Source: Deltaproteobacteria bacterium (GTDB lineage: Bacteria; Desulfobacterota; Binatia; UBA9968). From it: DNA of 64,000 bases. The translations under genes were made by a program, and so were the position numbers. The stretch is from NCBI GenBank assembly GCA_009692615.1, contig SHYW01000004.1:8273-72272 (forward strand). The letters run 5' to 3'. The notes under the pieces are model-generated. The model was given only the letters and a program-made list of their open reading frames with translations. It made no database searches and was not told where the DNA came from. Below are positions 1-12,107 of the stretch, piece after piece (the stretch's first letter is position 1; every line of letters begins with the position of its first letter).

Positions 1-555
1 CTTCTTCGGGTCAAGAAACGTCAGCCGCTCCGCCATCGGAGTTTCGGGAAAAACATAGCCGCAAGATTTACAGGTGCGAAGTTTCACATCGCCATTGAAC
101 TCGTTGTAGACCGCCGAGACCTGCGACGGAATATCGCCCTGGTTCACTAATCGCGAAAGCACCAAGTCGTCGCACTGCTCACAGAACCAGGCGAACTCTT
201 CTTTTTCTTCCTGGCGGCGCTTGCGCTCGATCACCAAGCCCCAAGTGTTTTCAAAGCGCCGCGGCGAATGCGGCGTGCCGCCGGGCAAAACGAAGATCTC
301 GCCTTCCTGGATGCGAAAGGATTGCCGCCGCTCGCCTTCCGGCTTGACCACCAACTCCATCTCGCCTTCGACCTGATAAAAAAACTCGTCACCCGGCTGA
401 ATATGAAAATCGAGCCGAGTATTCGGCCCGCGCAGTATCATCACGAGAAAGTCTTTGTAATGCACCAGCAGGTGATTGGTTCGGATCGGTGGATTGAACA
501 ACTGCGCGTTGTCTTTAACCCACTTCTTTAAATGGTATGTCGAAAGTAATTCCAT
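1..555 (-). CDS. nbaC: 3-hydroxyanthranilate 3,4-dioxygenase (cupin); the 3' end runs off the window start
   Basis: Absent from the ORF track because there is no stop in the window. My minus-strand translation from the ATG at 553-555 reads MELLSTYHLKKWVKDNAQLFNPPIRTNHLLV..LDFHIQPGDEFFYQVEGEMELVV..GTPHSPRRFENTWGLVIERKR..FAWFCEQC..CKSCG. The cupin core plus C-terminal Cys pairs is typical of bacterial HAAO. Confidence 0.8.
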   Translation of the reverse strand, partial: MELLSTYHLKKWVKDNAQLFNPPIRTNHLLVHYKDFLVMILRGPNTRLDFHIQPGDEFFYQVEGEMELVVKPEGERRQSFRIQEGEIFVLPGGTPHSPRRFENTWGLVIERKRRQEEKEEFAWFCEQCDDLVLSRLVNQGDIPSQVSAVYNEFNGDVKLRTCKSCGYVFPETPMAERLTFLDPKK

Positions 556-566
556 AAGCTAGCTCG

Positions 567-1090
567 TTGGAGTATTGGAGTACTGGAGTGATGGGTATCG
601 GATGGCGCCACGACTACGTGTCAGTCTTCATTAACTTCCCGTAGTTTTCATTGCTTTCCTTTACGATAAGTGTGTCAACCCAATCTCCATTAAGTTTTTT
701 CCTCTCGAGTGTTTCAACAAGCTTCAGTAACCCGTTCTCGATCTTGAAGGCGAGTTTATTCAAAGTAACGAACTCCTCCTCGGTAATCTGTTCGGCCTCT
801 CGATACGCGTGAAATCCAGATACGTTCTCTCCAAGAGAGGCCAAAGCAATGGTTAGAAAGTTGAGGTATTCCCGAATCGACTTTCGACAATACCCCTCTG
901 CAATGTTGCGATGGACGGAATCGCTCGCCGCTATCGATTGTGAGCCGACTCGTTTCAATTCGTAAGGCAATTTACGAAACACTTGGCTAGTGAGCCGATA
1001 CAATTCGATTGAGTCTTGCCACACTCGCAGCTGTTGATAGCCGCGGTTTTTGTTCTTAAACACCCATCACTCCAGTATTCCAGAACTCCA
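567..1090. repeat. Imperfect ~29 bp inverted repeats (567-596 and 1062-1090) bracketing the four-helix-bundle gene
   Basis: The left arm is ttggagtattggagtactggagtgatgggt. The reverse complement of the right arm is tggagttctggaatactggagtgatgggt. They share a 16 nt perfect core, tactggagtgatgggt. The arms fill the spacer between the stop at 1091 and the nbaC start at 555. Confidence 0.8.
614..1063 (-). CDS. Four-helix-bundle protein (23S rRNA intervening-sequence protein family, TIGR02436/PF05635-like)
   Basis: 149 aa ORF with a GTG start. The motifs YQQLRVWQDSIELYRLTSQVFRKLP..SIAASDSVHRNIAEGYCRKS..EYLNFLTIALASLGE are characteristic of this family. Confidence 0.8.
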   Translation of the reverse strand: MFKNKNRGYQQLRVWQDSIELYRLTSQVFRKLPYELKRVGSQSIAASDSVHRNIAEGYCRKSIREYLNFLTIALASLGENVSGFHAYREAEQITEEEFVTLNKLAFKIENGLLKLVETLERKKLNGDWVDTLIVKESNENYGKLMKTDT

Positions 1091-1873
1091 TCACTCCATT
1101 TTTTTCAGCTTCTCGCACTCGCGGGCGACGCCGTCGGTGAGCGCCCACCAGATCGCCAGCCCTTTGCGCAGCGCTTTTATCACTCGCACTTGCAGCTCGT
1201 TGGTGGTGGCGAACTGTTCGATTAATTCATAGCCGATATTGCTGTGTTCGGTGTCGGCCTCGCCGTGCTCGGCGAAGAATTCAATATCATTCGGTTTCAA
1301 ACCGTAATGATCTCGAAAGCTTTTAAAAAAGCGCCCGCCGGTCAATTGGTTCGAATATTCGTTGCAGCAATTGGTCGAGGCCACCTGTTCGAGAATGTGA
1401 TTACTGCGCAGCGCGATATCCAACCAACCGACCCGCGCCAGCACCGTGGTCGGGAGAAAGTCCTCTTCTATCTCGCAGCGTTCCAATTCCTTGGCCGGTA
1501 TGCCGATCGCCTCGCCGTAGCGCAAGAACAAGGCGCGATGGCCGAGCACCGCGCGCGGCGAACCTTCGAAATAACTGTAGCCCACCTCGGAATGAATAAC
1601 ATCGACAAATTTTTTGTGAATCTCGGGATCGTGAATACCCGACAGTTGGCAACGCACGAGCTTGGCCGTGTTAATGGCGACGTTGTAAGCGAAAATACCC
1701 CAGGCCTCTTTGGCCCACACCCGCACCGCTTCGATGGCCAGCTTGCCTTCATAGAGGTCGAGATAAAACGGATGATAGAGCCGCGCGTGGCGCTGCTTGA
1801 CCTCGTTCATGAGGGCCTGACAAAACTCTTTCGTGGGCAGCGTCTTTCCACTTAGGACTGCTTCAACTGACAT
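1091..1873 (-). CDS. Heme-oxygenase-like fold, iron-containing redox enzyme family (TenA/PqqC-like)
   Basis: 260 aa ORF with an ATG start. It is all-helical, with HPFYLDLYEGKL..VWAKEAWGIFAY near the N-terminus and FFAEHGEADTEHS near the C-terminus, resembling PqqC/TenA/HDO-type proteins. Confidence 0.6.
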   Translation of the reverse strand: MSVEAVLSGKTLPTKEFCQALMNEVKQRHARLYHPFYLDLYEGKLAIEAVRVWAKEAWGIFAYNVAINTAKLVRCQLSGIHDPEIHKKFVDVIHSEVGYSYFEGSPRAVLGHRALFLRYGEAIGIPAKELERCEIEEDFLPTTVLARVGWLDIALRSNHILEQVASTNCCNEYSNQLTGGRFFKSFRDHYGLKPNDIEFFAEHGEADTEHSNIGYELIEQFATTNELQVRVIKALRKGLAIWWALTDGVARECEKLKKME

Positions 1874-1898
1874 GTTTCACCTCTACATGAATCTTGGA

Positions 1899-1983
1899 AG
1901 GGCGGGTTTTAAACCCGCCCCTACGAATCTCATTTCTTTTTTGCGTACTTTGCGTTCTTTGCGGTTAATTGTCCGAATTCCGC
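1899..1983. repeat. REP-like elements: hairpin agggcgggttttaaacccgcccctacg followed by ttttgcgtactttgcgttctttgcggttaattgtccgaattccg
   Basis: The first motif recurs at 43911-43935. The second recurs at 57419-57465 and partly at 47527-47560. Confidence 0.8.
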
Positions 1984-2421
1984 TTACGCCATCCGCTGCT
2001 TTCGATTGTCGAATTTAAATTTGTTGGCGTTGCAAGCGACCTCGACGCGGTTGCCGTCGGGATCGAGAAAACTCACCGAACGATTGCCCGCCACCACCAA
2101 AGTTTCCGGCCCGCTGACGACGGGAACCTTGCGCCGCTTTAGAAGCGGACACAGCTCATCGATAATTTCGTTGCGGTCGACGTAGATGCAGAAGTGATGC
2201 AGCTTCGCCATCCCCTTGCCGCCGACGTGCTTGGCGCCTTTGGGTAATGCTTGCAGCGCGATATCGTGATGCTCACGGCCGTAACTCAAAAACGTCATCT
2301 TGGTTTGCAAGTTGCGCGCCGAGACTTTCAAGCCGAGCACCGCGGTATAAAATCGCACCGACTTCTTGAGATCCGCGACATTGAGCACGATATGACCGAG
2401 GGCGCCATTTTTCACCAACAT
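1984..2421 (-). CDS. VOC (glyoxalase/extradiol dioxygenase) family protein
   Basis: The track ORF is 1984-2517. I prefer the internal ATG at 2421 (MLVKNGALGHIVLNVADLKKSVRFYTAVLGL..FLDPDGNRVEV), because the N-terminal extension looks non-coding. The start remains uncertain. Confidence 0.7.
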   Translation of the reverse strand: MLVKNGALGHIVLNVADLKKSVRFYTAVLGLKVSARNLQTKMTFLSYGREHHDIALQALPKGAKHVGGKGMAKLHHFCIYVDRNEIIDELCPLLKRRKVPVVSGPETLVVAGNRSVSFLDPDGNRVEVACNANKFKFDNRKQRMA

Positions 2422-2528
2422 GCTAGCAGCATTAATGACCGGAGGCAGAACTGTCAAGCGCCGCTCGGCGACGACAACAACGATTTTCCATGTTACAACA
2501 TCAGCAGTAATCACCAAGGAATGATTAA

Positions 2529-3254
2529 ATGATCAAGACTCTGTTGTATCTTCTCGCCAGCGGCAAGTTGGGGACAGTGCTGCTCACGGGCGGTACAATG
2601 CTGTTGTCGGTGTTCGTCTACGCATGGATATTCGGCCTGCCCTACGCCGTCGGCTTTGTCCTGTTGATCTTCCTCCACGAGATGGGTCATTACGCCGCCG
2701 CTCGCCAGTGCGGCCTCAAGGTCGGCGCGCCGACGTTCATCCCATTCGTCGGCGCCTGGATCGCGCTCAAAGACTTGCCACACAATGCCGAAACCGAAGC
2801 CTACATCGGCATCGCCGGTCCCGTGGCCGGCAGCGTCGCCGCTGTCGCTTGTTATTTTCTCGCCTTGAGCTACGACAGCCGCTTGCTGCTGGCATTGTCC
2901 TACTCCGGTTTTTTTATCAATCTGTTTAACCTGATTCCGCTGTCACCCTTCGACGGCGGCCGCATCACCGCGATCATCAGCCCGCGCCTCTGGCTCCTCG
3001 GCGTGCCGATATTGATGGCGGTATTTTTCTACACGCCCAGCCCGCTGCTAATCTACATGGCGTTACTCGCCTGGCCGCAGATCAAGCGCGCCTGGCACTA
3101 CGACCCGGCGGCGCCGGAGAACGCCTTCTACTATTCGGTCAGCCCAAGAAAACGAATTCAGTACTCCGTCTGTTACCTTGGCTTGGCGGCATTTCTCGCC
3201 GTCATGAGTCACGACGTTCACGAGATGTTGGAATTGTCCCGCAGCGCTCGATGA
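2529..3254 (+). CDS. Site-2 protease family (M50) membrane metalloprotease
   Basis: 241 aa polytopic membrane protein. It has HExxH in LIFLHEMGHYAAARQCG and NLIPLSPFDGGRI downstream. Confidence 0.75.
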   Translation: MIKTLLYLLASGKLGTVLLTGGTMLLSVFVYAWIFGLPYAVGFVLLIFLHEMGHYAAARQCGLKVGAPTFIPFVGAWIALKDLPHNAETEAYIGIAGPVAGSVAAVACYFLALSYDSRLLLALSYSGFFINLFNLIPLSPFDGGRITAIISPRLWLLGVPILMAVFFYTPSPLLIYMALLAWPQIKRAWHYDPAAPENAFYYSVSPRKRIQYSVCYLGLAAFLAVMSHDVHEMLELSRSAR

Positions 3255-3276
3255 AAATGTCGCATCGAACTGTGTC

Positions 3277-3344
3277 CTGTACGGGCGGGGCGCGACCCGC
3301 CCTTCCCATCCACCCCTGGATACCGGCCTACGCCGGTATGACGG
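3277..3344. repeat. Two REP-like palindromes (ctgtacgggcggggcgcgacccgcccttccc; cccctggataccggcctacgccggtatgacgg)
   Basis: Both are self-complementary. Related copies are at 9395, 15524, 57466, 59855 (first type) and at 26265 and 43881 (second type). Confidence 0.75.
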
Positions 3345-3449
3345 ATATAAAAAGTGCGTAAACCTGTCGAACCGAAACCAAGATCGCCATTGACAGCAGT
3401 TTAATCCATGGGCCATATATCGATTGCCATTCTTGTAACGAGGTAGAAG

Positions 3450-4157
3450 ATGAAAATCATGGTCGTCATGGGCGAGTATCCGTCCGAGGAAACCGAGCGG
3501 CGCCGCCAAGCGGTGCTGAAGTGCGCCACGCCGGGCACCGAGATCGGCTTCGGCGTCATCGGCGCGACCTTCTTTCGCCATTCCAATTCACAGGTCAATT
3601 CGCTTTCCGCCGGACCGCTGGTCGCCCAAGTAGCAATCAAAGCCGAAGCGGATGGCTATGACGCCGTCGTCCCCTTCGGCACGCTCGACGCCGGTGTCGA
3701 GCTGGCGCGCAATCTAGTGAAAATCCCCGTCGTCGGCGCCGGCCAATCCGTGCTTCACCTCGGCGCGCAACTGAGTAATCGTTTGGGCGTGATCGCCTAC
3801 GAAGACAAAAGCATTCCGTTCATGCGCAAACAGATGCACGCCTGGCGCGTCGCCGATTCGGTGGTCGGCATCCGCGGCATCGGCATTCCGCTGCCGGAGA
3901 GCACCAAGAATCGCGAAGCGATGCGTGGAAAGTTCCTCGAAGTCGCCCGCAGTCTGATCGCCGACTGCGACGCCGAAGTTATCGTGCCCATGGGCGTCAC
4001 CATGGTGCCGGTGCAATACTCGCCCGAGGAAATGGCCAAAGAGCTCGGCGTGCCGGTCATGGACGCCCTCAAGACCAGCATCCAAACCGCCGAGATGATG
4101 GTACGCATGGGGCTGACGCATAGCGTTAGAACTTATCCGCGGCCGCTGGAGAAATAG
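3450..4157 (+). CDS. Asp/Glu/hydantoin racemase family protein
   Basis: 235 aa, RBS gaggtag upstream. DAVVPFGTLDAGVELARNLVKIPVVGAGQS and AEVIVPMGVTM fit the hydantoin/allantoin racemase-type two-domain layout. Confidence 0.65.
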   Translation: MKIMVVMGEYPSEETERRRQAVLKCATPGTEIGFGVIGATFFRHSNSQVNSLSAGPLVAQVAIKAEADGYDAVVPFGTLDAGVELARNLVKIPVVGAGQSVLHLGAQLSNRLGVIAYEDKSIPFMRKQMHAWRVADSVVGIRGIGIPLPESTKNREAMRGKFLEVARSLIADCDAEVIVPMGVTMVPVQYSPEEMAKELGVPVMDALKTSIQTAEMMVRMGLTHSVRTYPRPLEK

Positions 4158-4200
4158 CGTTGAGCCTCGAGGTTTGAGGGCCGAGCAGCTGGGAATCGTA

Positions 4201-5070
4201 ATGAGAAACTTTGAATTAGTCGAACCGCGATCGCTAAACGAAGCCTGCGCGCTCCTCGCCAACGAGAGCGATGCCAAAGCAGTCGCCGGCGGCACGGCGC
4301 TCTTGACGATCATCAAGCAAGGCCTGCTTCTGCCGAAGTCATTGGTCAACTTGAAGAAGATCGGCGATGGATCGGCGATCGCGTTCGATCCAATCCACGG
4401 CATGCGCATCGGCGCTTTGGCGACGATCAACGAGATCGAAACCTGCGAAATTGTAAAGCAGCACTATCCTATTCTCGCCCAAGCCTGTCACGTCGTCGCC
4501 AACATTCGCATTCGTAACATGGCGACCATCGGCGGCAACCTCGCCCATGGCGATTATCAATCCGATCCGCCGACCGTGCTCGCTGCTTTGAATGCGCGCG
4601 TTGAAATCATGAGCGCGACAGGGATTCGTGAATTACCGCTCGGCGAATTCCAACGCGGCAGCTACGAAACGGCCCTCGAAGCCGGCGAGTTGATCTCCGC
4701 GGTGATCATGCCACCGCTGCCAAGCGGAATGCTGGGCCACTATGTAAAATTCACGACCGGCTCTTCGGAAGAGCGCCCCTGCGCCGGTGTCGCGGCGTTG
4801 GCGCGGTTTGAAAACGGGTTGTGCAAGGAACTGCGCCTCGCTGTCGGTGCCGTGTCGGCGAAGCCGTCGCGCATTGGCGCGGAAGCCCTCGCCAACGGCA
4901 AAGCGCTGACACCTGATTTGATCGCCACCATCGCCGCCGAGGCGGCGCGCGCCGTCGACCCGATCGACGATGTGCGCGGACCGGCCGATTACAAGCGCCA
5001 TCTGGTCGGCGTGTTAACCCGCCGCGCGATTCAAGCGCTCGCCAATGGCAAGACGGAGGCGACAACATGA
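4201..5070 (+). CDS. Molybdenum hydroxylase FAD-binding (medium, CoxM/XdhB-like) subunit
   Basis: The track ORF starts at a TTG at 4174. I prefer the ATG at 4201 (MRNFELVEPRSLNEA..AVAGGTALL..NMATIGGNLAHGD..RGPADYKRHL). Confidence 0.8.
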   Translation: MRNFELVEPRSLNEACALLANESDAKAVAGGTALLTIIKQGLLLPKSLVNLKKIGDGSAIAFDPIHGMRIGALATINEIETCEIVKQHYPILAQACHVVANIRIRNMATIGGNLAHGDYQSDPPTVLAALNARVEIMSATGIRELPLGEFQRGSYETALEAGELISAVIMPPLPSGMLGHYVKFTTGSSEERPCAGVAALARFENGLCKELRLAVGAVSAKPSRIGAEALANGKALTPDLIATIAAEAARAVDPIDDVRGPADYKRHLVGVLTRRAIQALANGKTEATT

Positions 5071-7343
5071 CCCTAGTCGGGACCAATGTCGAAATGGTCG
5101 GCGGCCGCGCCAAGGTTAGCGGCGCGGTGAGCTATGTCGCCGATATGGAATTCCCAGGCCAGCTTTACGCCAAGGCGCTGCGCAGCCCCTATCCGCACGC
5201 GAAATTGCTGCGCGTCACCGCCAGTAAAGCGGCGGCGCTGCCAGGAGTCCGCGCAGTGGTGACACGCGACGATTTAGCGGGGCTTAATCCTTACTTCGGC
5301 ACCGGCGTCGAAGATCAGCCGGTGGTCGTCATCGACAAAGTTCGCTGCGTCGGCGACATCGTCGCCGCGGTGGCCGCGGACTCAAAAGAAATCGCCGAAG
5401 AAGCGATCACGCTGATCGAAGCCGACTATGAAGAGCTGCCCGCCGCCACCGACATTCTCGCAGCCGCCAAGCCGGGCGCGCCGCTGGTGCAGGAGCAGCA
5501 TGTCGACAAAAACGCCGGCGGCAACATTCACGGCGTCTATCGCGCCGCCAGCGGTGACATCGAGCAGGGTTTCAAAGAATCCGATGAGATCATCGAAAAC
5601 ATTTATCACATTCCGCCCGTGCAGCATGGCCATATCGAACCTCACGTCGTGACGGCGCTGTGGGAGCCCAGCGGCAAGCTGATCGTGCATACGCCGAGCC
5701 AGACGCCGTCGCCGCTGCAAGAGCAGATCGCCAAGGTTTTTAAAATGCCCTTGAACCGCGTGCGCGTCATCGTGCCCTTCATCGGCGGTGGCTACGGCGG
5801 CAAGAACCACGCGCGCATCGAGCCGGTGGTGGCGTTGCTGGCGCGCAAAGCGCGCCGCCCGGTGCAGTGGATTCTCAGTCGCGAGGAAGTTTTTCTCACC
5901 GGCCGGCGCTTCGGCGCGGTGGTGAAAATAAAAACCGGCTTCAAGCGCGACGGCCGGCTATGGGCGCGCAAGGTCGAAGCCTGGTACGACATGGGCGCCT
6001 ACGCGCTGTCGGGTCCGGCGAACACGAAGAACGCGGCCATCATCGCGGGCGGCCCCTACAACATTCCCCATCGCGACTACACCACTTACGCGGTTTACAC
6101 CAACCTGCCGCCCGCCGGTCCCTACCGCGGCGTCGGCGCGTCCCATGTTTGCTGGGCCTATGAATCGGACCTCGACGACATCGCCCGGCGCTGCAACCTC
6201 GATCCGTTGGCAGTACGGCTGAAAAATCTAATTCAAGAGAACGACCGCTTCATCACCGGTGAAGCGATGATTTCCGTCGGGGTTTCGCAATGCGTCAAGC
6301 AGGTCGCGGAATCCATCGGCTGGCAAACGGGAGCGGAGCAGTCCTCGCGAAGCGATACGATTGTCCGAGGCAAAGGCCTCGCCGTCGCGATCAAGAGCAC
6401 TTCGACACCGAGCACCTCTGCCGCCAGCGTGCGGCTTAACGCCGACGGCTCGGCGGTCTTGCTCACCAGCACCTCCGACATGGGCCAGGGCGCGCAGACC
6501 GCGTTGGCACAGATCGTCGCCGATGAATTGGCGCTACCCTTCGAGCGCGTCACCGTGACTTTCCCCGATAGCGATATTACGCCCTACGACAAATCCACCA
6601 GCTCCAGCCGAGCGACCTTTCACATGGGCAAAGCGGCGCAGCTCGCCGTCGGCCAGATTCGCGATCAATTGTTTCAAGCGGGAGCCAAAGCCCTCGAAGC
6701 CCGGGTCGAAGACTTGGAGTTGCGCGATAGCCGATTGCAAGTAAAAGGCGTACCGGAAAGAAGTCTCACCTACCCGCAGCTCTTCAAAGCGATCTACGGA
6801 GAGGCCAGCGGCAGCCTATTTGGCAGCCATACATTGCGCACCGAAGGCGGCATCGATGCCCAGGGGCATGGCAAAGGTTCGTCGTTTTGGTTTTACTCCG
6901 CCGCCAGCGCCGAAGTCGAAGTAGACACCGAGACCGGCAAAGTCCGCGTCCTCCAAGTCGCCAGCGCCGTCGATGTCGGCAAAGCGGTGCATCCGATTCA
7001 ATGCGGCCTGCAAAACGAAGGCTCGGCGCTGGCCGGATTGGGCTCGGCGTTATTTGAAGAGATGCGCTACGACAACGGCCAGCCGATCAACAGCAGTTTT
7101 CTCGATTATCTCTTGCCGTCGATGCTCGATCATCCCGGTGAATTTAACTCGCTGCTCGTGGAAACGCCCCATCCCGACGGTCCCTACGGCGCCAAGGGCA
7201 TGGGCGAAGCGGCGCTACCACCGATGGCGCCGGCAATCGGTAACGCCATCGCGAACGCATTGAACGGCGTACGCGTGCGCGATCTGCCGGTGAAGCCAGA
7301 CAAGATCGTCGCCGCTTTGAGCGCGAGTAAAAAGAGAAGCTGA
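5067..7343 (+). CDS. Molybdopterin-binding large subunit of a xanthine dehydrogenase/aldehyde oxidase-family hydroxylase
   Basis: 758 aa, with an ATGA overlap onto the upstream gene. Motifs are GGGYGGKN, PPAGPYRGVGASH and C-terminal KGMGEAALPPMAPAIGNAI. It lacks the AYxCSFR motif of form I CO dehydrogenase. Confidence 0.85.
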   Translation: MTLVGTNVEMVGGRAKVSGAVSYVADMEFPGQLYAKALRSPYPHAKLLRVTASKAAALPGVRAVVTRDDLAGLNPYFGTGVEDQPVVVIDKVRCVGDIVAAVAADSKEIAEEAITLIEADYEELPAATDILAAAKPGAPLVQEQHVDKNAGGNIHGVYRAASGDIEQGFKESDEIIENIYHIPPVQHGHIEPHVVTALWEPSGKLIVHTPSQTPSPLQEQIAKVFKMPLNRVRVIVPFIGGGYGGKNHARIEPVVALLARKARRPVQWILSREEVFLTGRRFGAVVKIKTGFKRDGRLWARKVEAWYDMGAYALSGPANTKNAAIIAGGPYNIPHRDYTTYAVYTNLPPAGPYRGVGASHVCWAYESDLDDIARRCNLDPLAVRLKNLIQENDRFITGEAMISVGVSQCVKQVAESIGWQTGAEQSSRSDTIVRGKGLAVAIKSTSTPSTSAASVRLNADGSAVLLTSTSDMGQGAQTALAQIVADELALPFERVTVTFPDSDITPYDKSTSSSRATFHMGKAAQLAVGQIRDQLFQAGAKALEARVEDLELRDSRLQVKGVPERSLTYPQLFKAIYGEASGSLFGSHTLRTEGGIDAQGHGKGSSFWFYSAASAEVEVDTETGKVRVLQVASAVDVGKAVHPIQCGLQNEGSALAGLGSALFEEMRYDNGQPINSSFLDYLLPSMLDHPGEFNSLLVETPHPDGPYGAKGMGEAALPPMAPAIGNAIANALNGVRVRDLPVKPDKIVAALSASKKRS

Positions 7344-7344
7344 A

Positions 7345-7806
7345 ATGAAACTCTCTATCGCCACGACTATCAATGGCCACAGCCAAGAGTTTCAGGTCAA
7401 CGCAAACCAAACGCTCTTGGAGCTGCTGCGCGACAAACTGAAACTCAAAGGCGCCGTCGAAGGTTGCAGCGTCGGCGTCTGCGGTTCATGCACGGTGTTG
7501 ATCGACGGCAAACCGGTCAGCTCGTGTCTTACCCTGGCGAGCAATATCGAAGACAAACAGGTCATTACTATCGAAGGCCTGTCGCAAAACGGTGAACTCG
7601 ATCCCGTGCAGCAAGCGTTCCTGAAACACCAAGCCTTTCAATGCGGCTTCTGCACCACCGGCATGATCATGGCGGTGAAAGGTTTACTGAACTCCAATGC
7701 CCATCCGAATGAAGAACAAGCGCGAGATTATCTGTCGGGCAACCTTTGCCGCTGCGGCACTTACAAAGAAGTGTTGGCGGCGGTCAAAGAGTTGGCAAAT
7801 AGTTGA
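7345..7806 (+). CDS. (2Fe-2S)-binding small subunit of the molybdenum hydroxylase
   Basis: 153 aa with the two cluster motifs CSVGVCGSCTV and QCGFCTTGM..CRCGTY. Confidence 0.9.
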   Translation: MKLSIATTINGHSQEFQVNANQTLLELLRDKLKLKGAVEGCSVGVCGSCTVLIDGKPVSSCLTLASNIEDKQVITIEGLSQNGELDPVQQAFLKHQAFQCGFCTTGMIMAVKGLLNSNAHPNEEQARDYLSGNLCRCGTYKEVLAAVKELANS

Positions 7807-7838
7807 TAGAAACGGTCACTGGCAGGTTTGCATCTCGC

Positions 7839-7867
7839 TTGCCAACTTAACTCACCGAGTTTAAACT
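7839..7867 (+). promoter_or_regulatory. Putative sigma70-type promoter for mazE (ttgcca - 17 nt - taaact)
   Basis: The hexamers are read directly at 7839-7844 and 7862-7867. The RBS gaggaa at 7880-7885 precedes the ATG at 7891. Confidence 0.4.
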
Positions 7868-7890
7868 GCCAAAAGTTCGAGGAAGCTATT

Positions 7891-8142
7891 ATGAAAGCGC
7901 GCATCATTCAAATCGGCAAAGCAAAAGGCGTTCGACTTCCAAATAAATTGGTCAAAGTGGCCCATCTCAGGGAAGAGGTCGAACTCGCAGCGGCACCTGG
8001 GCATATCACTATTCACAGCGCCGCTCGGCCGCGCGCCGGATGGTCGGCCTCAGCCAAGCGCATGCGCGAGCGCGGCGAGGATCGGCTAGTCGCGCCGGTA
8101 CCAGCGACAAAATTCGACGAGGAAGAATGGCGGTGGCGCTAG
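7891..8142 (+). CDS. mazE: AbrB/MazE/SpoVT-family antitoxin
   Basis: The track ORF is 7828-8142. The internal ATG at 7891 has a good RBS. MKARIIQIGKAKGVRLPNKLVKVAHL is a SpoVT-AbrB swapped-hairpin motif. It overlaps the downstream toxin by 16 nt. Confidence 0.75.
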   Translation: MKARIIQIGKAKGVRLPNKLVKVAHLREEVELAAAPGHITIHSAARPRAGWSASAKRMRERGEDRLVAPVPATKFDEEEWRWR

Positions 8143-8468
8143 CTCAAACACCCGCACGCGGCGAAGTCTATTTAGTTCAGCTCGATCCAACGCGTGGAGT
8201 AGAGATCCGGAAAACCAGACCCTGCATCGTCATCTCACCCAATGAACTAAATCAACACCTGCGCACAGTAATTGTCGCGCCTTTGACCACGCAGAGTCAC
8301 GCCTATCCGTGGCGCCCACGCTGCCGATTTCAGGGCAAAGCCGGTTATGTTGTCATCGATCAGCTTCGTACCGTCGACGTCCAACGCTTGACCAAACGAC
8401 TGGGACAAATTCCGCAAAACACGCTTACTACGATACTGAACGTACTCCACGAGATGTTTGCATTTTAA
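8127..8468 (+). CDS. mazF: MazF/PemK-family endoribonuclease toxin
   Basis: Start taken at the ATG at 8127 within track ORF 8040-8468. RGEVYLVQLDPTRGVEIRKTRPCIVISP..VIVAPLTT..IDQLRTVD is a canonical PemK motif. Confidence 0.85.
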   Translation: MAVALAQTPARGEVYLVQLDPTRGVEIRKTRPCIVISPNELNQHLRTVIVAPLTTQSHAYPWRPRCRFQGKAGYVVIDQLRTVDVQRLTKRLGQIPQNTLTTILNVLHEMFAF

Positions 8469-8539
8469 GTCAGGCCCAAACCTGTCGTAACTTGGCCGTC
8501 GCAAAATTTTCTACAATTCAGTGAATCGCGAATAACTCC

Positions 8540-9343
8540 ATGCCCACCGACACCTGCTACTGGAAACACGAAATCCCCGCCGACCAAGCTTTTCCCTGCT
8601 ACGACGGCAAAAGCACAGTCTGTAGCCATTGCTGCGTCGAGCAGTGTCCCAAGGAAACGCCGCAATGGTTCGCCGCCTGCGCCCGCGCCGGCCATCCGAC
8701 CTGGCCTAGCGTCGATCAAGGCCAGCGCGTGTCGCGCAAACTGGTCGTGCTCGAATCTTACTGGGACAACCGTCTGTTTCAGACCATGTCGGTCAAAGGC
8801 TTCTTCGAATCCATGGGGCCGTTGCACGATCCGCCGTTGCAACTAGCGCACCGCTTCGTCGAATCCCAACGCGGCCTAGCACACTACACGCGATCGCCCG
8901 AAGGCCTTCTCTGGCGCGATCCCGCCGCCGCCGATGCGCCGATTTTCTACTTGGCATTTCACGGCGCGCCGAGCGAAGTCAAATCGGTCCTCGAATCCAT
9001 CGGCGCCCAAGAGCTGTGCGATGCCTTCCAAAACTTCGGCGTCAAACCCAACCTGGTTTACTTCGCCGCGTGCAGCGTGCTCAAAGGCCGCGCCGGCCGA
9101 CAGTTCGCCAAGAAATTTCTCGAAGCCTCCCGCTGCCGCGCGCTGCTCGGCTACACCACCAACGTCAACTGGATGCTCAGCCTGCTGACCGATATGCTTT
9201 TCCTACACCGCTTCTATCGCGACGACGATCCATGGAAAAACTTGCGCAAGATTTACCGCTCGGTGCTGAACGACTTCAAACCCGCCGAAGAAATTGGTTG
9301 GACATTAATCGAGAATCCGCGCAGCTTTAAGAAGCGCCGATAA
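8540..9343 (+). CDS. Uncharacterised protein: Cys-rich N-terminus plus a domain with a caspase/CHAT-like His-Cys arrangement
   Basis: 267 aa with GC3-rich codons from the first ATG. It has seven Cys within residues 6-47 (CSHCCVEQC). PIFYLAFHGAP (H141) and NLVYFAACSV (C178) each follow a hydrophobic strand. Confidence 0.6.
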   Translation: MPTDTCYWKHEIPADQAFPCYDGKSTVCSHCCVEQCPKETPQWFAACARAGHPTWPSVDQGQRVSRKLVVLESYWDNRLFQTMSVKGFFESMGPLHDPPLQLAHRFVESQRGLAHYTRSPEGLLWRDPAAADAPIFYLAFHGAPSEVKSVLESIGAQELCDAFQNFGVKPNLVYFAACSVLKGRAGRQFAKKFLEASRCRALLGYTTNVNWMLSLLTDMLFLHRFYRDDDPWKNLRKIYRSVLNDFKPAEEIGWTLIENPRSFKKRR

Positions 9344-9394
9344 CTTGCTAAAACTGACGACAGCTAGAAGCACACGAGGTCACGATATAATTTT

Positions 9395-9425
9395 CTGTAG
9401 GGGCAGACCTGCGTGTCTGCCCTTC
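9395..9425. repeat. REP-like palindrome ctgtaggggcagacctgcgtgtctgcccttc
   Basis: There is a near-identical copy at 59855-59885 (ctgtaggggccgacctgcgtgtcggccctc). Related gtaggggc..gccc hairpins occur at 15524 and 57466. Confidence 0.8.
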
Positions 9426-9448
9426 TCCATTCGAAGGACTGAATCATC

Positions 9449-10552
9449 ATGCTGAGAGCTGGAATCGTCGGTCTGCCCAACGTCGGCAAGTCGACACTGT
9501 TTAACGCCATCACGCGCACGCGCAAAGCCGAGGCGGCCAATTATCCCTTTTGCACCATCGATCCCAACGTCGGCATGGTCACCGTGCCGGACGCGCGGCT
9601 CTATGTCTTGCAGCAGATGGTCAAAACCAACGTGGTCATCCCGGCGGTGATCGAGTTCGTTGACATCGCTGGCCTGGTCAAAGGCGCCAGCCAAGGCGAA
9701 GGGCTCGGCAATAAATTTCTCACCCATATCCGCGAAGTCGACGCCATCGTCCAAGTTGTGCGCTGCTTCGAAGACGCCGACGTGCACCATGTCTCCGGCA
9801 ACATCGATCCGGTGCGCGACATCGAAGTCATCAACACCGAACTCATGCTCGCCGATCTCGAAACCGTGAAGAAGCGGCGCGAGCGCATCGCCAAGGAGAT
9901 CAAGCGCGGCGACAAAGCCGCCGCCGCCGAGGACGCCCTGCTGGTGAAAATCGAAACCGCCCTCGACGCTGGCAAGCCAGCTCTCACTGTCGAACTGACG
10001 CCGGAAGAACACGCCATGTCCGCGCAGTTTTTCCTGCTCTCCGACAAGCGCACGATCTTCGCCTGCAACGTCAAAGAGTCCGACTTGGCCACCGCCGATC
10101 AGAACAGCTACGTGCAAAAAGTGCGCGACTACGTGAAAACCCATCTCGCTTGCGAAGCGGTGGTGATCAGCGCGCAGATCGAGAGCGACCTCGTCGATCT
10201 CGAACCCGCCGACGCTGAAGCCTTTCTCAAAGAACTCGGCGTACAAGAAAGCGGCATCGGCGCGCTCATCCGCGCAACTTATCATCTGCTCGGGTTGCGG
10301 ACTTATCTCACCGCCGGCGAAAAAGAAGTGCGTGCCTGGACCATTCACGCCGGCGACACCGCCCCCAAAGCCGCCGGCGTCATCCACTCCGACTTCGAAC
10401 GCGGCTTCATCAAAGCCGAAACCGTTTCTTACGAGGACTTAGTTCAATGCGGCTCCGTCGCCGCGGCCCGTACGAAGGGCTTATATCGCATGGAAGGGAA
10501 AGAATACGTCGTGCAGGATGGGGATGTGATGTTGTTTAAGTTCAATGTTTAG
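9449..10552 (+). CDS. ychF: Redox-regulated ATPase YchF (Obg-family GTPase-like)
   Basis: 367 aa. It has the P-loop GIVGLPNVGKSTLFNAIT, the motif FVDIAGLVKGAS and a TGS-like C-terminus, EGKEYVVQDGDVMLFKFNV. Confidence 0.95.
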   Translation: MLRAGIVGLPNVGKSTLFNAITRTRKAEAANYPFCTIDPNVGMVTVPDARLYVLQQMVKTNVVIPAVIEFVDIAGLVKGASQGEGLGNKFLTHIREVDAIVQVVRCFEDADVHHVSGNIDPVRDIEVINTELMLADLETVKKRRERIAKEIKRGDKAAAAEDALLVKIETALDAGKPALTVELTPEEHAMSAQFFLLSDKRTIFACNVKESDLATADQNSYVQKVRDYVKTHLACEAVVISAQIESDLVDLEPADAEAFLKELGVQESGIGALIRATYHLLGLRTYLTAGEKEVRAWTIHAGDTAPKAAGVIHSDFERGFIKAETVSYEDLVQCGSVAAARTKGLYRMEGKEYVVQDGDVMLFKFNV

Positions 10553-10645
10553 TGAACAAGCTGAAAATGCGCAGCCGAAAGTAAATCCTGTTACGTTAAC
10601 CAGGGAGACCCATTAAGAATAGTCGCGTAAAGAAAGCAACAGAGC
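10453..10645 (+). repeat. Copy 1 of a composite direct repeat (ychF 3' end 10453-10547 plus DUF4926-3'-like segment 10590-10645)
   Basis: 10453-10547 matches 11120-11214 (95 nt, 9 mismatches by my count). gttacgttaaccagggagacccattaagaatagtcgcgtaaagaaag matches 11441-11488 with small indels. Confidence 0.85.
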
Positions 10646-10657
10646 CAAATTCAATCC

Positions 10658-11074
10658 ATGAAGATTGCGCCTCAGAGTTTCTATGCAGCTATCGCTGCTG
10701 GCTGCGCCACGGTTTTGCCCTTGGTCGGGGTGCAATTAGTCGTTGATTATTTCGATTCACCCGCTAAAGGTCCGGATCGGGCAACAATGGCAGTGATCTT
10801 CCTAACGCCCATTATCATCTTGGGATTTGCAGCCTACTTTGTTGGAGTCAGGATATTACTTTCATTGCTTCGGCTCGATTCGCTTCGTACGGCATTGATC
10901 GTAAGCGCGCTCACTGTCGGCGTTCTAATAAGCTGGATGATTTTCAACGACCCGTCATCAAGCCCGAATACGTTCTGGGGATTTGTCGGACCTTCTTGCA
11001 TAGTTCTTACATCCCTCGTCGCGGGAACTTTTGTGTACGAGTGGGCGCGTCAACGTATTCATCCGAACTGGTGA
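10658..11074 (+). CDS. Small integral membrane protein, unknown function
   Basis: 138 aa with about four hydrophobic segments. Its third codon positions are visibly AT-richer than the flanking core genes. It lies between the two composite repeat copies. Confidence 0.55.
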   Translation: MKIAPQSFYAAIAAGCATVLPLVGVQLVVDYFDSPAKGPDRATMAVIFLTPIIILGFAAYFVGVRILLSLLRLDSLRTALIVSALTVGVLISWMIFNDPSSSPNTFWGFVGPSCIVLTSLVAGTFVYEWARQRIHPNW

Positions 11075-11119
11075 AATAGACCACAATACACATGACCGCT
11101 CACGTAGCGATGAATGCGA

Positions 11120-11219
11120 CTCCGTCACCGCCGCGCGCACCAAGGGCTTGTGCCGCATGGAAGGGAAAGAATATGTCGTGCAGGATGGGGATGTGATGTT
11201 GTTTAAGTTCAATGGGTAG
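11120..11219 (+). pseudogene. Orphan duplicate of the last ~32 codons of ychF
   Basis: It encodes ..SVTAARTKGLCRMEGKEYVVQDGDVMLFKFNG*, against ychF ..SVAAARTKGLYRMEGKEYVVQDGDVMLFKFNV*. There is no upstream ychF body. Confidence 0.85.
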
Positions 11220-11249
11220 TGCGCGCCTCGGTCGCGAACGGAAACGAAG

Positions 11250-11477
11250 ATGAAACAACGAAAACTCAAACTATTGGAAACCATCGCACTGCTTCAAGAC
11301 ATACCATCCCGCAAGCTGAAACGCGGCGAAGTTGGCACGGTAGAAGAAATCCTTGCGCCCAATTTTTACGAAGTTGAATTCTGTGATGACGAAGGGCAAA
11401 CCTACGCCGAACTGGCGTTACGCGGCATACAGATCATCCCGTTACATAACCAGAGCCCATTAAGAATTGTCGCGTGA
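11250..11477 (+). CDS. DUF4926-like small protein
   Basis: 75 aa. LLETIALLQDIPSRKLKRGEVGTVEEILAPNFYEVEFCDDEGQTYAEL matches the DUF4926 pattern (SH3-like, ..yeVEF.d.dG.t) as I remember it. Confidence 0.65.
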   Translation: MKQRKLKLLETIALLQDIPSRKLKRGEVGTVEEILAPNFYEVEFCDDEGQTYAELALRGIQIIPLHNQSPLRIVA

Positions 11478-11574
11478 GCAAAGAGGCCCACGACAGCTCC
11501 AATCTATAGAATTGGTATTATGCCCCCGGACCTTTGTCTCTTTCATTTTCCAAAACTGTGGCTACAATAGGTCC

Positions 11575-11907
11575 GTGGCTCGAGCACTCTCCCCGGATGA
11601 TGTTCTCTTTGAAGTTTTGAGTCCGCTTGGATTTCGTGTACGCGTCACACGCGGCTACTGGGAAGTCATCGTTTCGATCAAGCATCCGGTCATGGCGGGA
11701 CATGAACAGGATGTCAAAGAAACGCTTGAAACTCCCAGCGAGATTCGATTGAGCAAGAACGATTCGACAGTTCACCTGTTTTACCGGCAGAAAGAGATCG
11801 GACGATGGGTATGTGCTGTGGCCAAGCGTCTCGATGGTGAAGGCTTTCTGATTACAGCTTACCCAACCGACGCGATCAAAGAAGGAGAACAGATATGGCC
11901 CAAGTGA
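11575..11907 (+). CDS. Conserved small protein of unknown function (candidate toxin-like partner of DUF2283)
   Basis: The track ORF is 11467-11907 with a TTG start. I prefer the GTG at 11575. Motifs are GFRVRVTRGYWEVIVSIKHPVMAGHEQDVKETLETPSEIRLSKNDSTVHLFYR..GFLITAYPTD. It overlaps the next gene by 13 nt. Confidence 0.5.
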   Translation: MARALSPDDVLFEVLSPLGFRVRVTRGYWEVIVSIKHPVMAGHEQDVKETLETPSEIRLSKNDSTVHLFYRQKEIGRWVCAVAKRLDGEGFLITAYPTDAIKEGEQIWPK

Positions 11908-12107
11908 AAGTTTTTTACGATGAAACCGGCAATACGCTCACCGTCTGGTTTGGCGATCCTGAGAGCGAGTACATCAGCGAGGAAACCGGTGAGGAAGTCA
12001 TCCTCATGAAGGACAAGGCTGGTCATGTCATCGGTTTTGAAAAGCTCAATTTCACGGTCGCCAAACCCAAGCATCTACAAGTGGCGTTCGAAACGGTAGG
12101 CGGCTAA
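11895..12107 (+). CDS. DUF2283-like small protein
   Basis: 70 aa. VFYDETGNTLTVWFGDPE..VILMKDKAGHVIGFEKLNF fits the YD.e.D.l.i.f ... G.ivGiE pattern of DUF2283. Confidence 0.7.
   Translation: MAQVKVFYDETGNTLTVWFGDPESEYISEETGEEVILMKDKAGHVIGFEKLNFTVAKPKHLQVAFETVGG

What the first reader, a model, noticed from the sequence alone, without database searches (positions are those of the whole stretch)
7807..9448. Candidate three-gene accessory module: mazE-mazF followed by a Cys-rich protein with a caspase/CHAT-like His-Cys dyad
A 1.6 kb islet sits between the Mo-enzyme operon and ychF. It contains a classical MazEF pair with its own promoter-like element. 71 nt downstream, on the same strand, is a 267 aa protein with no recognisable annotated function.

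Its first ~50 residues carry seven Cys and three His (C6, C20, C28, C31, C32, C36, C47), which suggests metal binding. The core shows two hydrophobic strands, each ending in a potential catalytic residue: PIFYLAFHG (H141) and NLVYFAACS (C178). That is the signature geometry of clan CD (caspase/CHAT/gingipain) peptidases. From memory the core resembles an uncharacterised family annotated as DUF6642, but I cannot verify that here.

A protease-fold effector coupled to an RNase TA pair would be an undescribed arrangement. It is my top candidate for a novel system, although co-location could be coincidental.
Basis: inference. Interest (0 to 1): 0.6.

Follow-up and report, generated by a model that had tools for sequence, protein, structure and literature searches.

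The report
MazEF cassette beside unrelated caspase-fold gene
The three genes are real, but they are not one system: a mobile MazEF toxin-antitoxin pair has landed just upstream of a resident gene for a small, uncharacterised caspase-like (CHAT-like) cysteine protease carrying an undescribed cysteine-rich metal-binding module.

Summary
Nearly every sequence observation holds. MazE (7891-8142) overlaps MazF (8127-8468). The 267-aa ORF starts 71 nt later (8540-9343) and matches Pfam DUF6642. It has seven Cys and three His in its first 52 residues, and H141 and C178 are conserved.

The three-gene module is not supported. None of 97 loci carrying a family member encodes a MazE- or MazF-like ORF. 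The closest relatives (76-86% identity) keep the same neighbourhood (Asp/Glu racemase, Mo-enzyme genes, DUF6642, then ychF or an NMT1-family binding protein) without MazEF. In L003 only 78 nt sit where the window has the cassette.

GC3 agrees: DUF6642 0.74 and YchF 0.75, against MazE 0.61 and MazF 0.54.

Neighbours of homologs are mostly metabolic genes. Only two loci adjoin defence genes.

Best reading: an ordinary MazEF insertion beside a native, probably active, minimal clan-CD peptidase of unknown substrate. The Cys7His module also occurs in tandem on a Ser/Thr kinase and matches no Pfam model.

The parts
7839..7867 (+). Promoter-like site (TTGCCA, 17 nt, TAAACT) 24 nt upstream of mazE, with a GAGGA Shine-Dalgarno at about 7879-7883
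   Evidence: Consensus scan. It matches 9 of 12 positions and is not above shuffle expectation, so it is weak evidence. The sequence was read.
7891..8142 (+). mazE-like antitoxin, 83 aa, AbrB/MazE/SpoVT type
   Evidence: No Pfam or NCBIfam hit. tblastn finds 71 plasmid records, up to 52% identity, where the match lies on genes annotated AbrB/MazE/SpoVT that overlap PemK/MazF toxin genes. GC3 is 0.61.
8127..8468 (+). mazF (PemK/MazF-family endoribonuclease toxin), 113 aa, overlapping mazE by 16 nt
   Evidence: PF02452 at 1.6e-28, covering profile positions 2-109 of 109. Kid/MazF PDB chains match at 8.5e-11 and weaker. GC3 is 0.54, against 0.75 for the host genes.
8540..9343 (+). 267-aa two-domain protein: a Cys7His module plus a DUF6642 caspase-fold domain. 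It is a native chromosomal gene.
   Evidence: PF20347 at 27.3 bits. There are 519 homologs. The gene is syntenic in L003-L007 and L092. GC3 is 0.74.
8540..8713 (+). N-terminal Cys-rich module, residues 1-58. Pattern: C-x3-H-x9-C-x-D-x5-C-x2-C-C-x3-C-x10-C, then P-x-W.
   Evidence: Invariant C6, H10, C20, D22, C28, C31, C32, C36, C47, P53 and W55 in alignment A4. The module is absent from the roughly 200-aa short form. It occurs in tandem in the kinase P0225 and in P0195. It has no Pfam match. Model confidence is low, pLDDT 46-79.
8723..9325 (+). Caspase-hemoglobinase-fold core, residues 62-262. E72 is codon 8753-8755, H141-G142 starts at 8960, and C178 is codon 9071-9073.

Best explanation
Two independent entities lie side by side.

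(1) A self-contained type II toxin-antitoxin cassette. MazE is an AbrB-type antitoxin and likely autorepressor. MazF is a PemK-family endoribonuclease. The cassette was acquired horizontally and inserted into the short spacer between the Mo-enzyme small-subunit gene and the next gene.

(2) A resident, vertically inherited gene for a cytoplasmic two-domain protein. Its C-terminal 200 residues form a minimal caspase-hemoglobinase (clan CD, CHAT-like) fold, Pfam DUF6642. His141-Gly142 ends strand 3, Cys178 follows strand 4, and an invariant Glu72 ends strand 1. The most likely function is a cysteine endopeptidase that uses the His-Cys dyad. By inference only, Glu72 sits where other clan CD enzymes build the S1 pocket, so it may select a basic P1 residue.

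The N-terminal 58 residues form a separate module with eight invariant ligand-type residues (7 Cys and 1 His). This most likely binds two Zn ions, with Fe-S as an alternative, and serves as a regulatory or targeting domain.

Shown here: gene identities, the fold, residue conservation, the absence of MazEF in relatives, and the compositional contrast.

Inferred: catalytic activity, metal binding, P1 preference and the regulatory role. The substrate is unknown.
For: Gene identities:
- MazF and MazE are confirmed.
- Homologous MazEF pairs sit on plasmids with unrelated downstream genes.

No linkage between MazEF and the DUF6642 gene:
- tblastn of the window's MazE and MazF found 0 hits in 79 genome loci.
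- phmmer with three MazE/MazF pairs against all six-frame ORFs of 97 loci gave no hit at E <= 0.01.
- In L003 (84% identity), coding sequence aligns up to the Fer2 stop codon and again from the DUF6642 ATG. Only 78 nt lie between, where the window has 733 nt.
- L004-L007 carry an MBL-fold gene in or next to that slot instead.
- P0002, P0008 and P0019 (76-85% identity) also lack MazEF.
- GC3 is 0.74 for DUF6642, 0.75 for YchF and 0.75 for the Mo-enzyme large subunit. It is 0.61 for MazE and 0.54 for MazF.

Fold and conserved residues:
- The model has mean pLDDT 83.7.
- E72, H141, G142 and C178 are invariant.
- H141 closes strand 135-143 and C178 follows strand 172-175. By established knowledge of clan CD, these are the positions of the catalytic dyad.

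Precedent and the N-terminal module:
- Small standalone clan-CD-like proteins can act through the Cys. Tce2 toxicity in yeast is lost in the C115S mutant (PMC13323088).
- The N-terminal module is autonomous. It occurs twice on a Ser/Thr kinase and twice in P0195.
Against: - No terminator-like site lies between mazF and the 267-aa gene. Read-through co-transcription in this genome cannot be excluded, and in that case expression would be incidentally coupled.
- There is no sequence-level match to CHAT, Peptidase_C14 or any solved structure. The protease assignment therefore rests on fold plus motif conservation.
- The N-terminal module is modelled with low confidence. Metal binding is inferred from the residue pattern alone.
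- The Pfam summary of neighbours lists only the 25 most frequent of 81 families. Single TA neighbours of other families could have been missed.
Confidence: 0.75

Rival explanations
1. MazE, MazF and the caspase-like protein form one three-gene system. For example, the protease cleaves MazE, or a MazF-linked partner, to release the RNase, or it acts as a second effector.
For: - The three genes are on the same strand, with a 71-nt gap and no terminator-like site between them.
- A dedicated protease paired with a MazF-fold protein has precedent. The CRISPR-Lon protease CalpL cleaves the MazF-like CalpT (bioRxiv 10.1101/2021.12.06.471393).
Against: - There were 0 MazE/MazF-like ORFs in 97 loci.
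- The nearest relatives keep the DUF6642 gene in the same place without MazEF.
- Codon composition is discordant between MazEF and the DUF6642 gene.
- MazEF homologs on plasmids have other downstream genes.
- No PADLOC model matches any of the three proteins.
Confidence: 0.06
2. The DUF6642 protein is a stand-alone defence or conflict effector, either anti-phage or, in phage-borne relatives, anti-defence. It is unrelated to MazEF.
For: - In L020 the homolog lies directly after the BREX genes PglZ and BrxL and a SIR2-like gene.
- In L087 it lies next to a GmrSD-like type IV restriction gene and an IS element.
- The distant member P0223 sits in a phage replication/recombination module with RecT, RusA, an exonuclease and DnaB.
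- P0130 sits among DUF5131, HU and small unknown genes.
- The closest solved folds include the defence proteases SAVED-CHAT and Craspase.
Against: - Only 2 of about 97 loci adjoin recognisable defence genes.
- The dominant neighbours are metabolic: ILVD_EDD dehydratase in 13, MFS in 7, TctC in 5, then cupin, enoyl-CoA hydratase and enolase.
- The window's subfamily is stably syntenic with catabolic genes and has host-like composition.
- There is no sensor domain such as SAVED, TPR or CARF.
Confidence: 0.12
3. The caspase-fold domain is not a peptidase. It could be a scaffold or pseudo-enzyme, or it could use the Cys for other chemistry such as transpeptidation, ligation or thiol-based redox sensing together with the Cys-rich module.
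For: - Non-proteolytic members of the fold exist among the structural hits: Raptor, CFAP46/FAP46 and c-FLIP.
- Legumain-type ligases (OaAEP1) and the GPI transamidase are also hits.
- There is no sequence-level match to any characterised peptidase family.
Against: Pseudo-enzymes normally lose the dyad. Here H141-G142 and C178 are the most conserved positions across relatives at 20-47% identity. This is the pattern expected of a catalytic site.
Confidence: 0.15

Closest known systems
CHAT-domain proteases (SAVED-CHAT, PDB 8tl0; TPR-CHAT/Csx29 of type III-E Craspase; anti-sigma factor DdvA)
   Same: - They share the caspase-like sheet, with His-Gly after strand 3 and Ala-Cys after strand 4.
   Different: - Sequence identity is only about 10%, and there is no Pfam CHAT hit.
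- The core is about 200 residues, with no SAVED, TPR or transmembrane sensor.
- It is not encoded with CRISPR or CBASS genes.
- It carries a Cys7His module instead.
Tce1/Tce2 (DUF4347) T6SS putative cysteine protease effectors of P. aeruginosa (PDB 9qpe; PMC13323088)
   Same: - Small clan-CD-like domains of similar size (Tce2 is 190 aa).
- They have a His/Cys dyad, and Tce2 toxicity depends on the Cys.
   Different: - There is no T6SS or Hcp context here.
- It is a different Pfam family.
- It is a cytoplasmic resident gene rather than a secreted effector.
Caspases, metacaspases, gingipains, legumain, clostripain and separase (MEROPS clan CD)
   Different: - There is no recognisable sequence similarity.
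- It has no prodomain or intersubunit linker of the caspase type.
- Its specificity is unknown.
Canonical chromosomal or plasmid MazEF (PemIK/ChpA-type) type II TA pairs
   Same: - The antitoxin-toxin order is the same, with overlapping reading frames.
- The toxin has a PemK domain and the antitoxin is homologous to AbrB/MazE genes.
   Different: Nothing notable. NCBIfam equivalog scores fall below the cutoffs for E. coli MazF or ChpB, so it is a generic family member.
CalpL-CalpT (CRISPR-Lon protease with a MazF-fold partner), and the E. coli mazEFG operon (the latter from my own knowledge)
   Same: These are known cases in which a MazF-type protein is functionally tied to a third protein or a dedicated protease.
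   Different: In those cases the partner is conserved next to the MazF-like gene. Here co-occurrence is seen in one genome only. CalpL is a Lon-type protease, not a caspase-type one.

Membership tests
PemK/MazF toxin (PF02452) | Full-length match to the family profile above the curated cutoff | tested here: met
   99.5 bits against a cutoff of 23.1, covering profile positions 2-109 of 109. Kid/MazF PDB chains match at 1e-10 to 1e-4.
PemK/MazF toxin (PF02452) | Preceded by, and overlapping, a small antitoxin gene | tested here: met
   There is a 16-nt overlap with the 83-aa ORF. The same arrangement occurs in the plasmid homologs L080 and L081.
PemK/MazF toxin (PF02452) | Sequence-specific endoribonuclease activity neutralised by the antitoxin | not testable with these tools
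   This needs toxicity/rescue and RNA cleavage assays.
MazE/AbrB/SpoVT antitoxin | Match to a curated family profile | tested here: not met
   No Pfam or NCBIfam family matched at E <= 1, and no PDB sequence hit was found.
MazE/AbrB/SpoVT antitoxin | Homology to annotated antitoxins that pair with MazF toxins | tested here: met
   71 plasmid records cover at least 80% of the query at E down to 2e-16. The matched genes are annotated AbrB/MazE/SpoVT and are adjacent to PemK/MazF genes.
DUF6642 (PF20347) | Score at or above the Pfam gathering threshold | tested here: met
   27.3 bits against 27.0, which is marginal. Support comes from the PF20347 labels on most close homologs. A profile of the subfamily also reaches canonical DUF6642 proteins; for example P0228 scores 70.4 bits against PF20347.
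Clan CD cysteine peptidases (caspase-hemoglobinase fold) | Alpha/beta/alpha sandwich with the caspase-type central sheet | tested here: met
   [not shown]
Clan CD cysteine peptidases (caspase-hemoglobinase fold) | Conserved His (usually His-Gly) after strand 3 and Cys after strand 4 | tested here: met
   H141-G142 ends strand 135-143 and C178 follows strand 172-175. Both are invariant and 96% conserved in 80 representatives.
Clan CD cysteine peptidases (caspase-hemoglobinase fold) | His and Cys side chains within catalytic distance, and superposition on a known dyad | not testable with these tools
   Model coordinates and residue-level structural alignments are not returned.
Clan CD cysteine peptidases (caspase-hemoglobinase fold) | Peptidase activity dependent on the Cys | not testable with these tools
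   This requires biochemistry.
CHAT domain (PF12770) | Sequence match to the CHAT profile | tested here: not met
   DUF6642 was the only Pfam family matched at E <= 1. The resemblance to CHAT is structural only.
Known anti-phage defence systems (PADLOC-DB v2) | Match of any of the three proteins to a defence-system model | tested here: not met
   0 families matched MazE, MazF or the 267-aa protein at E <= 1.
Proposed MazE-MazF-DUF6642 three-gene system | Recurrent co-occurrence of the three genes in independent genomes | tested here: not met
   0 of 79 loci by tblastn. 0 of 97 loci by phmmer. Syntenic relatives lack MazEF.

The most novel reading that the evidence does not exclude
The long-form DUF6642 proteins may define an undescribed class of minimal, sensor-coupled caspase-like proteases. 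In this reading a new Cys7His metal or redox module, shared with Ser/Thr kinases, gates a CHAT-like catalytic core. Phage-borne short forms of the same family would act in virus-host conflict. In this one genome, read-through from the MazEF promoter could additionally tie its expression to TA activation.
Probability: 0.15. Interest if true: 0.55.

Novelty: new member of a known kind. Interest (0 to 1): 0.28.

Why it matters
The proposed new system, a TA pair with a caspase-like effector, does not exist as a conserved unit, so it should not be carried forward as a candidate defence system.

Some modest points remain of value:
- DUF6642 is a sizeable uncharacterised family, with 787 clusters at 50% identity. 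It can now be assigned with good confidence to the caspase/CHAT fold, with a conserved Glu-His-Cys signature.
- One subfamily carries a Cys7His module that matched no Pfam model searched here. The same module decorates a Ser/Thr kinase.
- Some distant members are phage-borne.

Together these give concrete handles (H141, C178, E72 and the Cys ligands) for anyone studying bacterial caspase-like proteases.

Tried and rejected
- Sequence searches of the 267-aa protein and of its family profile against PDB sequences gave only chance-level hits.
- NCBIfam, PADLOC and PHROGs gave nothing for the 267-aa protein.
- A literature search for DUF6642 and PF20347 found 0 papers.
- The afdb50 fold library was unavailable.
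- A word-indexed homolog search with the Cys-rich module alignment returned only 5 fragments and no new architectures.
- Scans of IMG/VR viral contigs with A1 and with P0223 found no confirmed relative. The divergent alignment A5 was too variable to scan with.
- tblastn against GenBank phages found nothing.
- My first greedy ORF caller produced many spurious Arg-rich antisense ORFs in the high-GC loci. I replaced it with a GC3-filtered caller.
- I considered that the 71-nt spacer holds the 267-aa gene's own promoter. TACAAT lies at 8512-8517, but the best -35-like hexamer is only 14 nt away, so I left this open.
- I considered Fe-S rather than Zn for the Cys module. The two cannot be told apart from sequence.

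Full report
**Observation**

The ORF map and sequence show the following genes on the + strand:
- the Mo-enzyme large subunit (5067-7343) and its [2Fe-2S] small subunit (7345-7806);
- an 83-aa ORF (7891-8142) that overlaps a 113-aa ORF (8127-8468) by 16 nt;
- a 71-nt gap;
- a 267-aa ORF (8540-9343);
- ychF (9449-10552).

The 113-aa protein is a full-length PemK/MazF toxin (PF02452, 1.6e-28). It also matches solved Kid and MazF chains.

The 83-aa protein hits no curated profile. However, tblastn finds it in 71 plasmid records. There the matched gene is annotated AbrB/MazE/SpoVT and overlaps a PemK/MazF toxin gene. The MazEF pair is therefore real and ordinary.

The promoter-like site at 7839-7867 is a single 9-of-12 match and is not above shuffle expectation.

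Its recalled DUF6642 resemblance is also confirmed: PF20347 scores 27.3 bits against a cutoff of 27.0. Most close homologs carry the same precomputed label.

**What the 267-aa protein is**

It has 519 homologs in the word-indexed search. These come from MAGs of Binatia/'Deltaproteobacteria', Burkholderiales, Methylomirabilota, Anaerolineae and others. An exhaustive profile search finds 787 cluster representatives at E <= 1e-3.

A long form of about 260 aa carries the Cys-rich N-terminus. A short form of about 200 aa, mostly from Burkholderiales, lacks it.

An AlphaFold2 model built on 30 sequences has mean pLDDT 83.7. The core, residues 62-262, scores mostly 81-97, while the N-terminal 60 residues score 46-79.

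H141-G142 closes the strand at 135-143, and C178 follows the strand at 172-175. From established knowledge of clan CD, these are the positions of the catalytic His and Cys.

In 29 divergent relatives (20-47% identity to the query), the only invariant columns are E72, H141, G142 and C178. In 80 representatives with a median identity of 24%, these positions are 95-96% conserved.

Sequence-level membership of CHAT or Peptidase_C14 is not supported.

**The Cys-rich module**

An alignment of eleven copies shows invariant C6, H10, C20, D22, C28, C31, C32, C36, C47, P41, P53 and W55. That gives eight ligand-type residues, enough for two tetrahedral metal sites. This is an inference.

The module is autonomous. 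It occurs twice in tandem at the C-terminus of a 693-aa Ser/Thr kinase with a weak TPR match (P0225), and twice in the 202-aa protein P0195. No Pfam model matches it.

**Is it a three-gene module? No**

- tblastn of the window's MazE and MazF against 79 genome loci carrying a homolog found nothing.
- phmmer with three MazE/MazF pairs against all six-frame ORFs of 97 loci found nothing at E <= 0.01.
- The closest relatives share the window's neighbourhood but lack MazEF. In L003 (84% identity), coding sequence aligns up to the Fer2 stop codon and again from the DUF6642 ATG. Only 78 nt lie between, against 733 nt in the window.
- L004-L007 carry an MBL-fold gene in or next to that slot.
- P0002 (85% identity) follows the Mo-enzyme gene directly.
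- P0008 and P0019 follow an Asp/Glu-racemase-family gene and precede an NMT1-type binding protein.
- GC3 is 0.74 for the 267-aa gene, the same as YchF and the Mo-enzyme large subunit (0.75). It is 0.61 for MazE and 0.54 for MazF, close to the other small accessory genes downstream of ychF.
- MazEF homologs on plasmids have unrelated downstream genes.

Among 124 immediate neighbours of homologs, the commonest Pfam families are ILVD_EDD dehydratases (13), MFS (7), TctC (5), cupins, enoyl-CoA hydratases, enolase-superfamily enzymes and MarR/LuxR regulators. No TA family appears among the 25 commonest families.

PADLOC found essentially one defence neighbour. I traced it to L020, where the homolog follows BREX PglZ-BrxL. 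One further locus (L087) has a GmrSD-like gene and an IS element next door. Two defence-adjacent loci out of about 97 is not a recurrent association.

**Mechanism**

The best-supported reading is a mobile MazEF cassette inserted upstream of a native gene for a minimal CHAT-like cysteine peptidase.

Catalysis by H141 and C178, a role for E72 in the S1 pocket, and metal binding by the N-terminal module are all inferences.

Because no terminator-like site separates mazF from the gene, incidental co-transcription in this genome remains possible.

A dedicated protease paired with a MazF-fold protein is not without precedent: CalpL cleaves CalpT. In that case, however, the partners are conserved together, which is not so here.

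Small standalone clan-CD-like proteins that act through their Cys are known. Tce2 is an example (PMC13323088).

**Wider family**

A canonical DUF6642 member, P0223, lies inside a phage replication/recombination module with RecT, RusA, exonucleases, a replication initiator and DnaB. Another member, P0130, lies among DUF5131, HU and small unknown genes. The family is therefore not confined to chromosomal metabolic contexts. No relative was found in GenBank phages or IMG/VR with the available scans.

**Verdict**

The sequence observations and the fold and dyad inference are right. The proposed novel three-gene system is not supported. What remains is an ordinary TA insertion next to a new, reasonably well-defined member of an uncharacterised caspase-fold family with an undescribed Cys7His accessory module. 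Interest is low to moderate.

Noticed in passing
window 10446-10554 and 11113-11221: The last 109 nt of ychF are repeated 667 nt downstream at 89% identity. Between the copies lies a low-GC stretch (0.48-0.51) with a 138-aa hydrophobic ORF (10658-11074) that has no Pfam hit. This looks like an insertion at the ychF 3' end that duplicated its target.
   Followed up: partly
window 11250-12107: A cluster of small low-GC3 genes lies downstream of the ychF repeat: DUF4926 (11250-11477), an unknown 146-aa ORF (11467-11907) and DUF2283 (11895-12107). They overlap each other and resemble TA or addiction modules. The ychF surroundings therefore seem to collect small mobile cassettes.
   Followed up: partly
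P0225 (693 aa) residues about 555-665; P0195 (202 aa): The Cys7His module of the 267-aa protein occurs as two tandem copies at the C-terminus of a Ser/Thr protein kinase that also has a weak TPR match (P0225). It also occurs as two tandem copies in a small stand-alone protein (P0195). No Pfam model matches it.
   Followed up: partly
L082-L086 (Logan contigs carrying P0223): A canonical 193-aa DUF6642 protein is encoded among tightly packed co-directional genes of a phage replication/recombination module: RecT-like, RusA-like, exonucleases, a replication initiator and a DnaB helicase.
   Followed up: partly
L020 10-6800; L087 2500-6831: In a Bacteroidales MAG (L020) the long-form homolog sits directly after BREX PglZ and BrxL and a SIR2-like gene. 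In L087 it sits after a 1072-aa Mrr_N/GmrSD_N protein and an IS element. These are isolated cases.
   Followed up: partly
L004 5085-5975, L005 1326-2213, L006 5091-5975, L007 3117-3995: The slot that holds MazEF in the window, between the Fer2 small-subunit gene and the DUF6642 gene, holds a roughly 295-aa gene in L004-L006. That gene has an N-terminal hydrophobic leader, and two such neighbours match Lactamase_B_3 in Pfam. L007 has the same gene just upstream of the Fer2 gene instead. L003 has nothing in the slot, so it is a variable position in this lineage.
   Followed up: partly
window 9386-9422: A TATAAT hexamer (9386-9391) is followed by a perfect 8-bp hairpin, GGGCAGAC / GTCTGCCC (9401-9408 / 9415-9422, 6-nt loop). 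The hairpin lies just upstream of ychF. It has no T-tract, so the scan did not call it as a terminator.
   Followed up: no
window about 1-7806 and loci L093-L099: The conserved neighbourhood of the long-form gene resembles an aromatic or N-heterocycle catabolic cluster. It includes an Asp/Glu-racemase-family gene, a three-subunit xanthine-dehydrogenase-family Mo enzyme, a 3-HAO cupin, a glyoxalase, a haem-oxygenase-like protein, UbiD, an amidase and an NMT1 binding protein. A functional link to the protease was not examined.
   Followed up: no
L022-L073 (Burkholderiales short-form loci): In about 13 Burkholderiales loci the short-form gene directly follows an ILVD_EDD-family dehydratase. In L034 the two genes overlap by 4 nt. 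FAD monooxygenases lie upstream, and TctC/Bug binding proteins or enoyl-CoA hydratases lie downstream. This is lineage-specific synteny of unknown meaning.
   Followed up: partly
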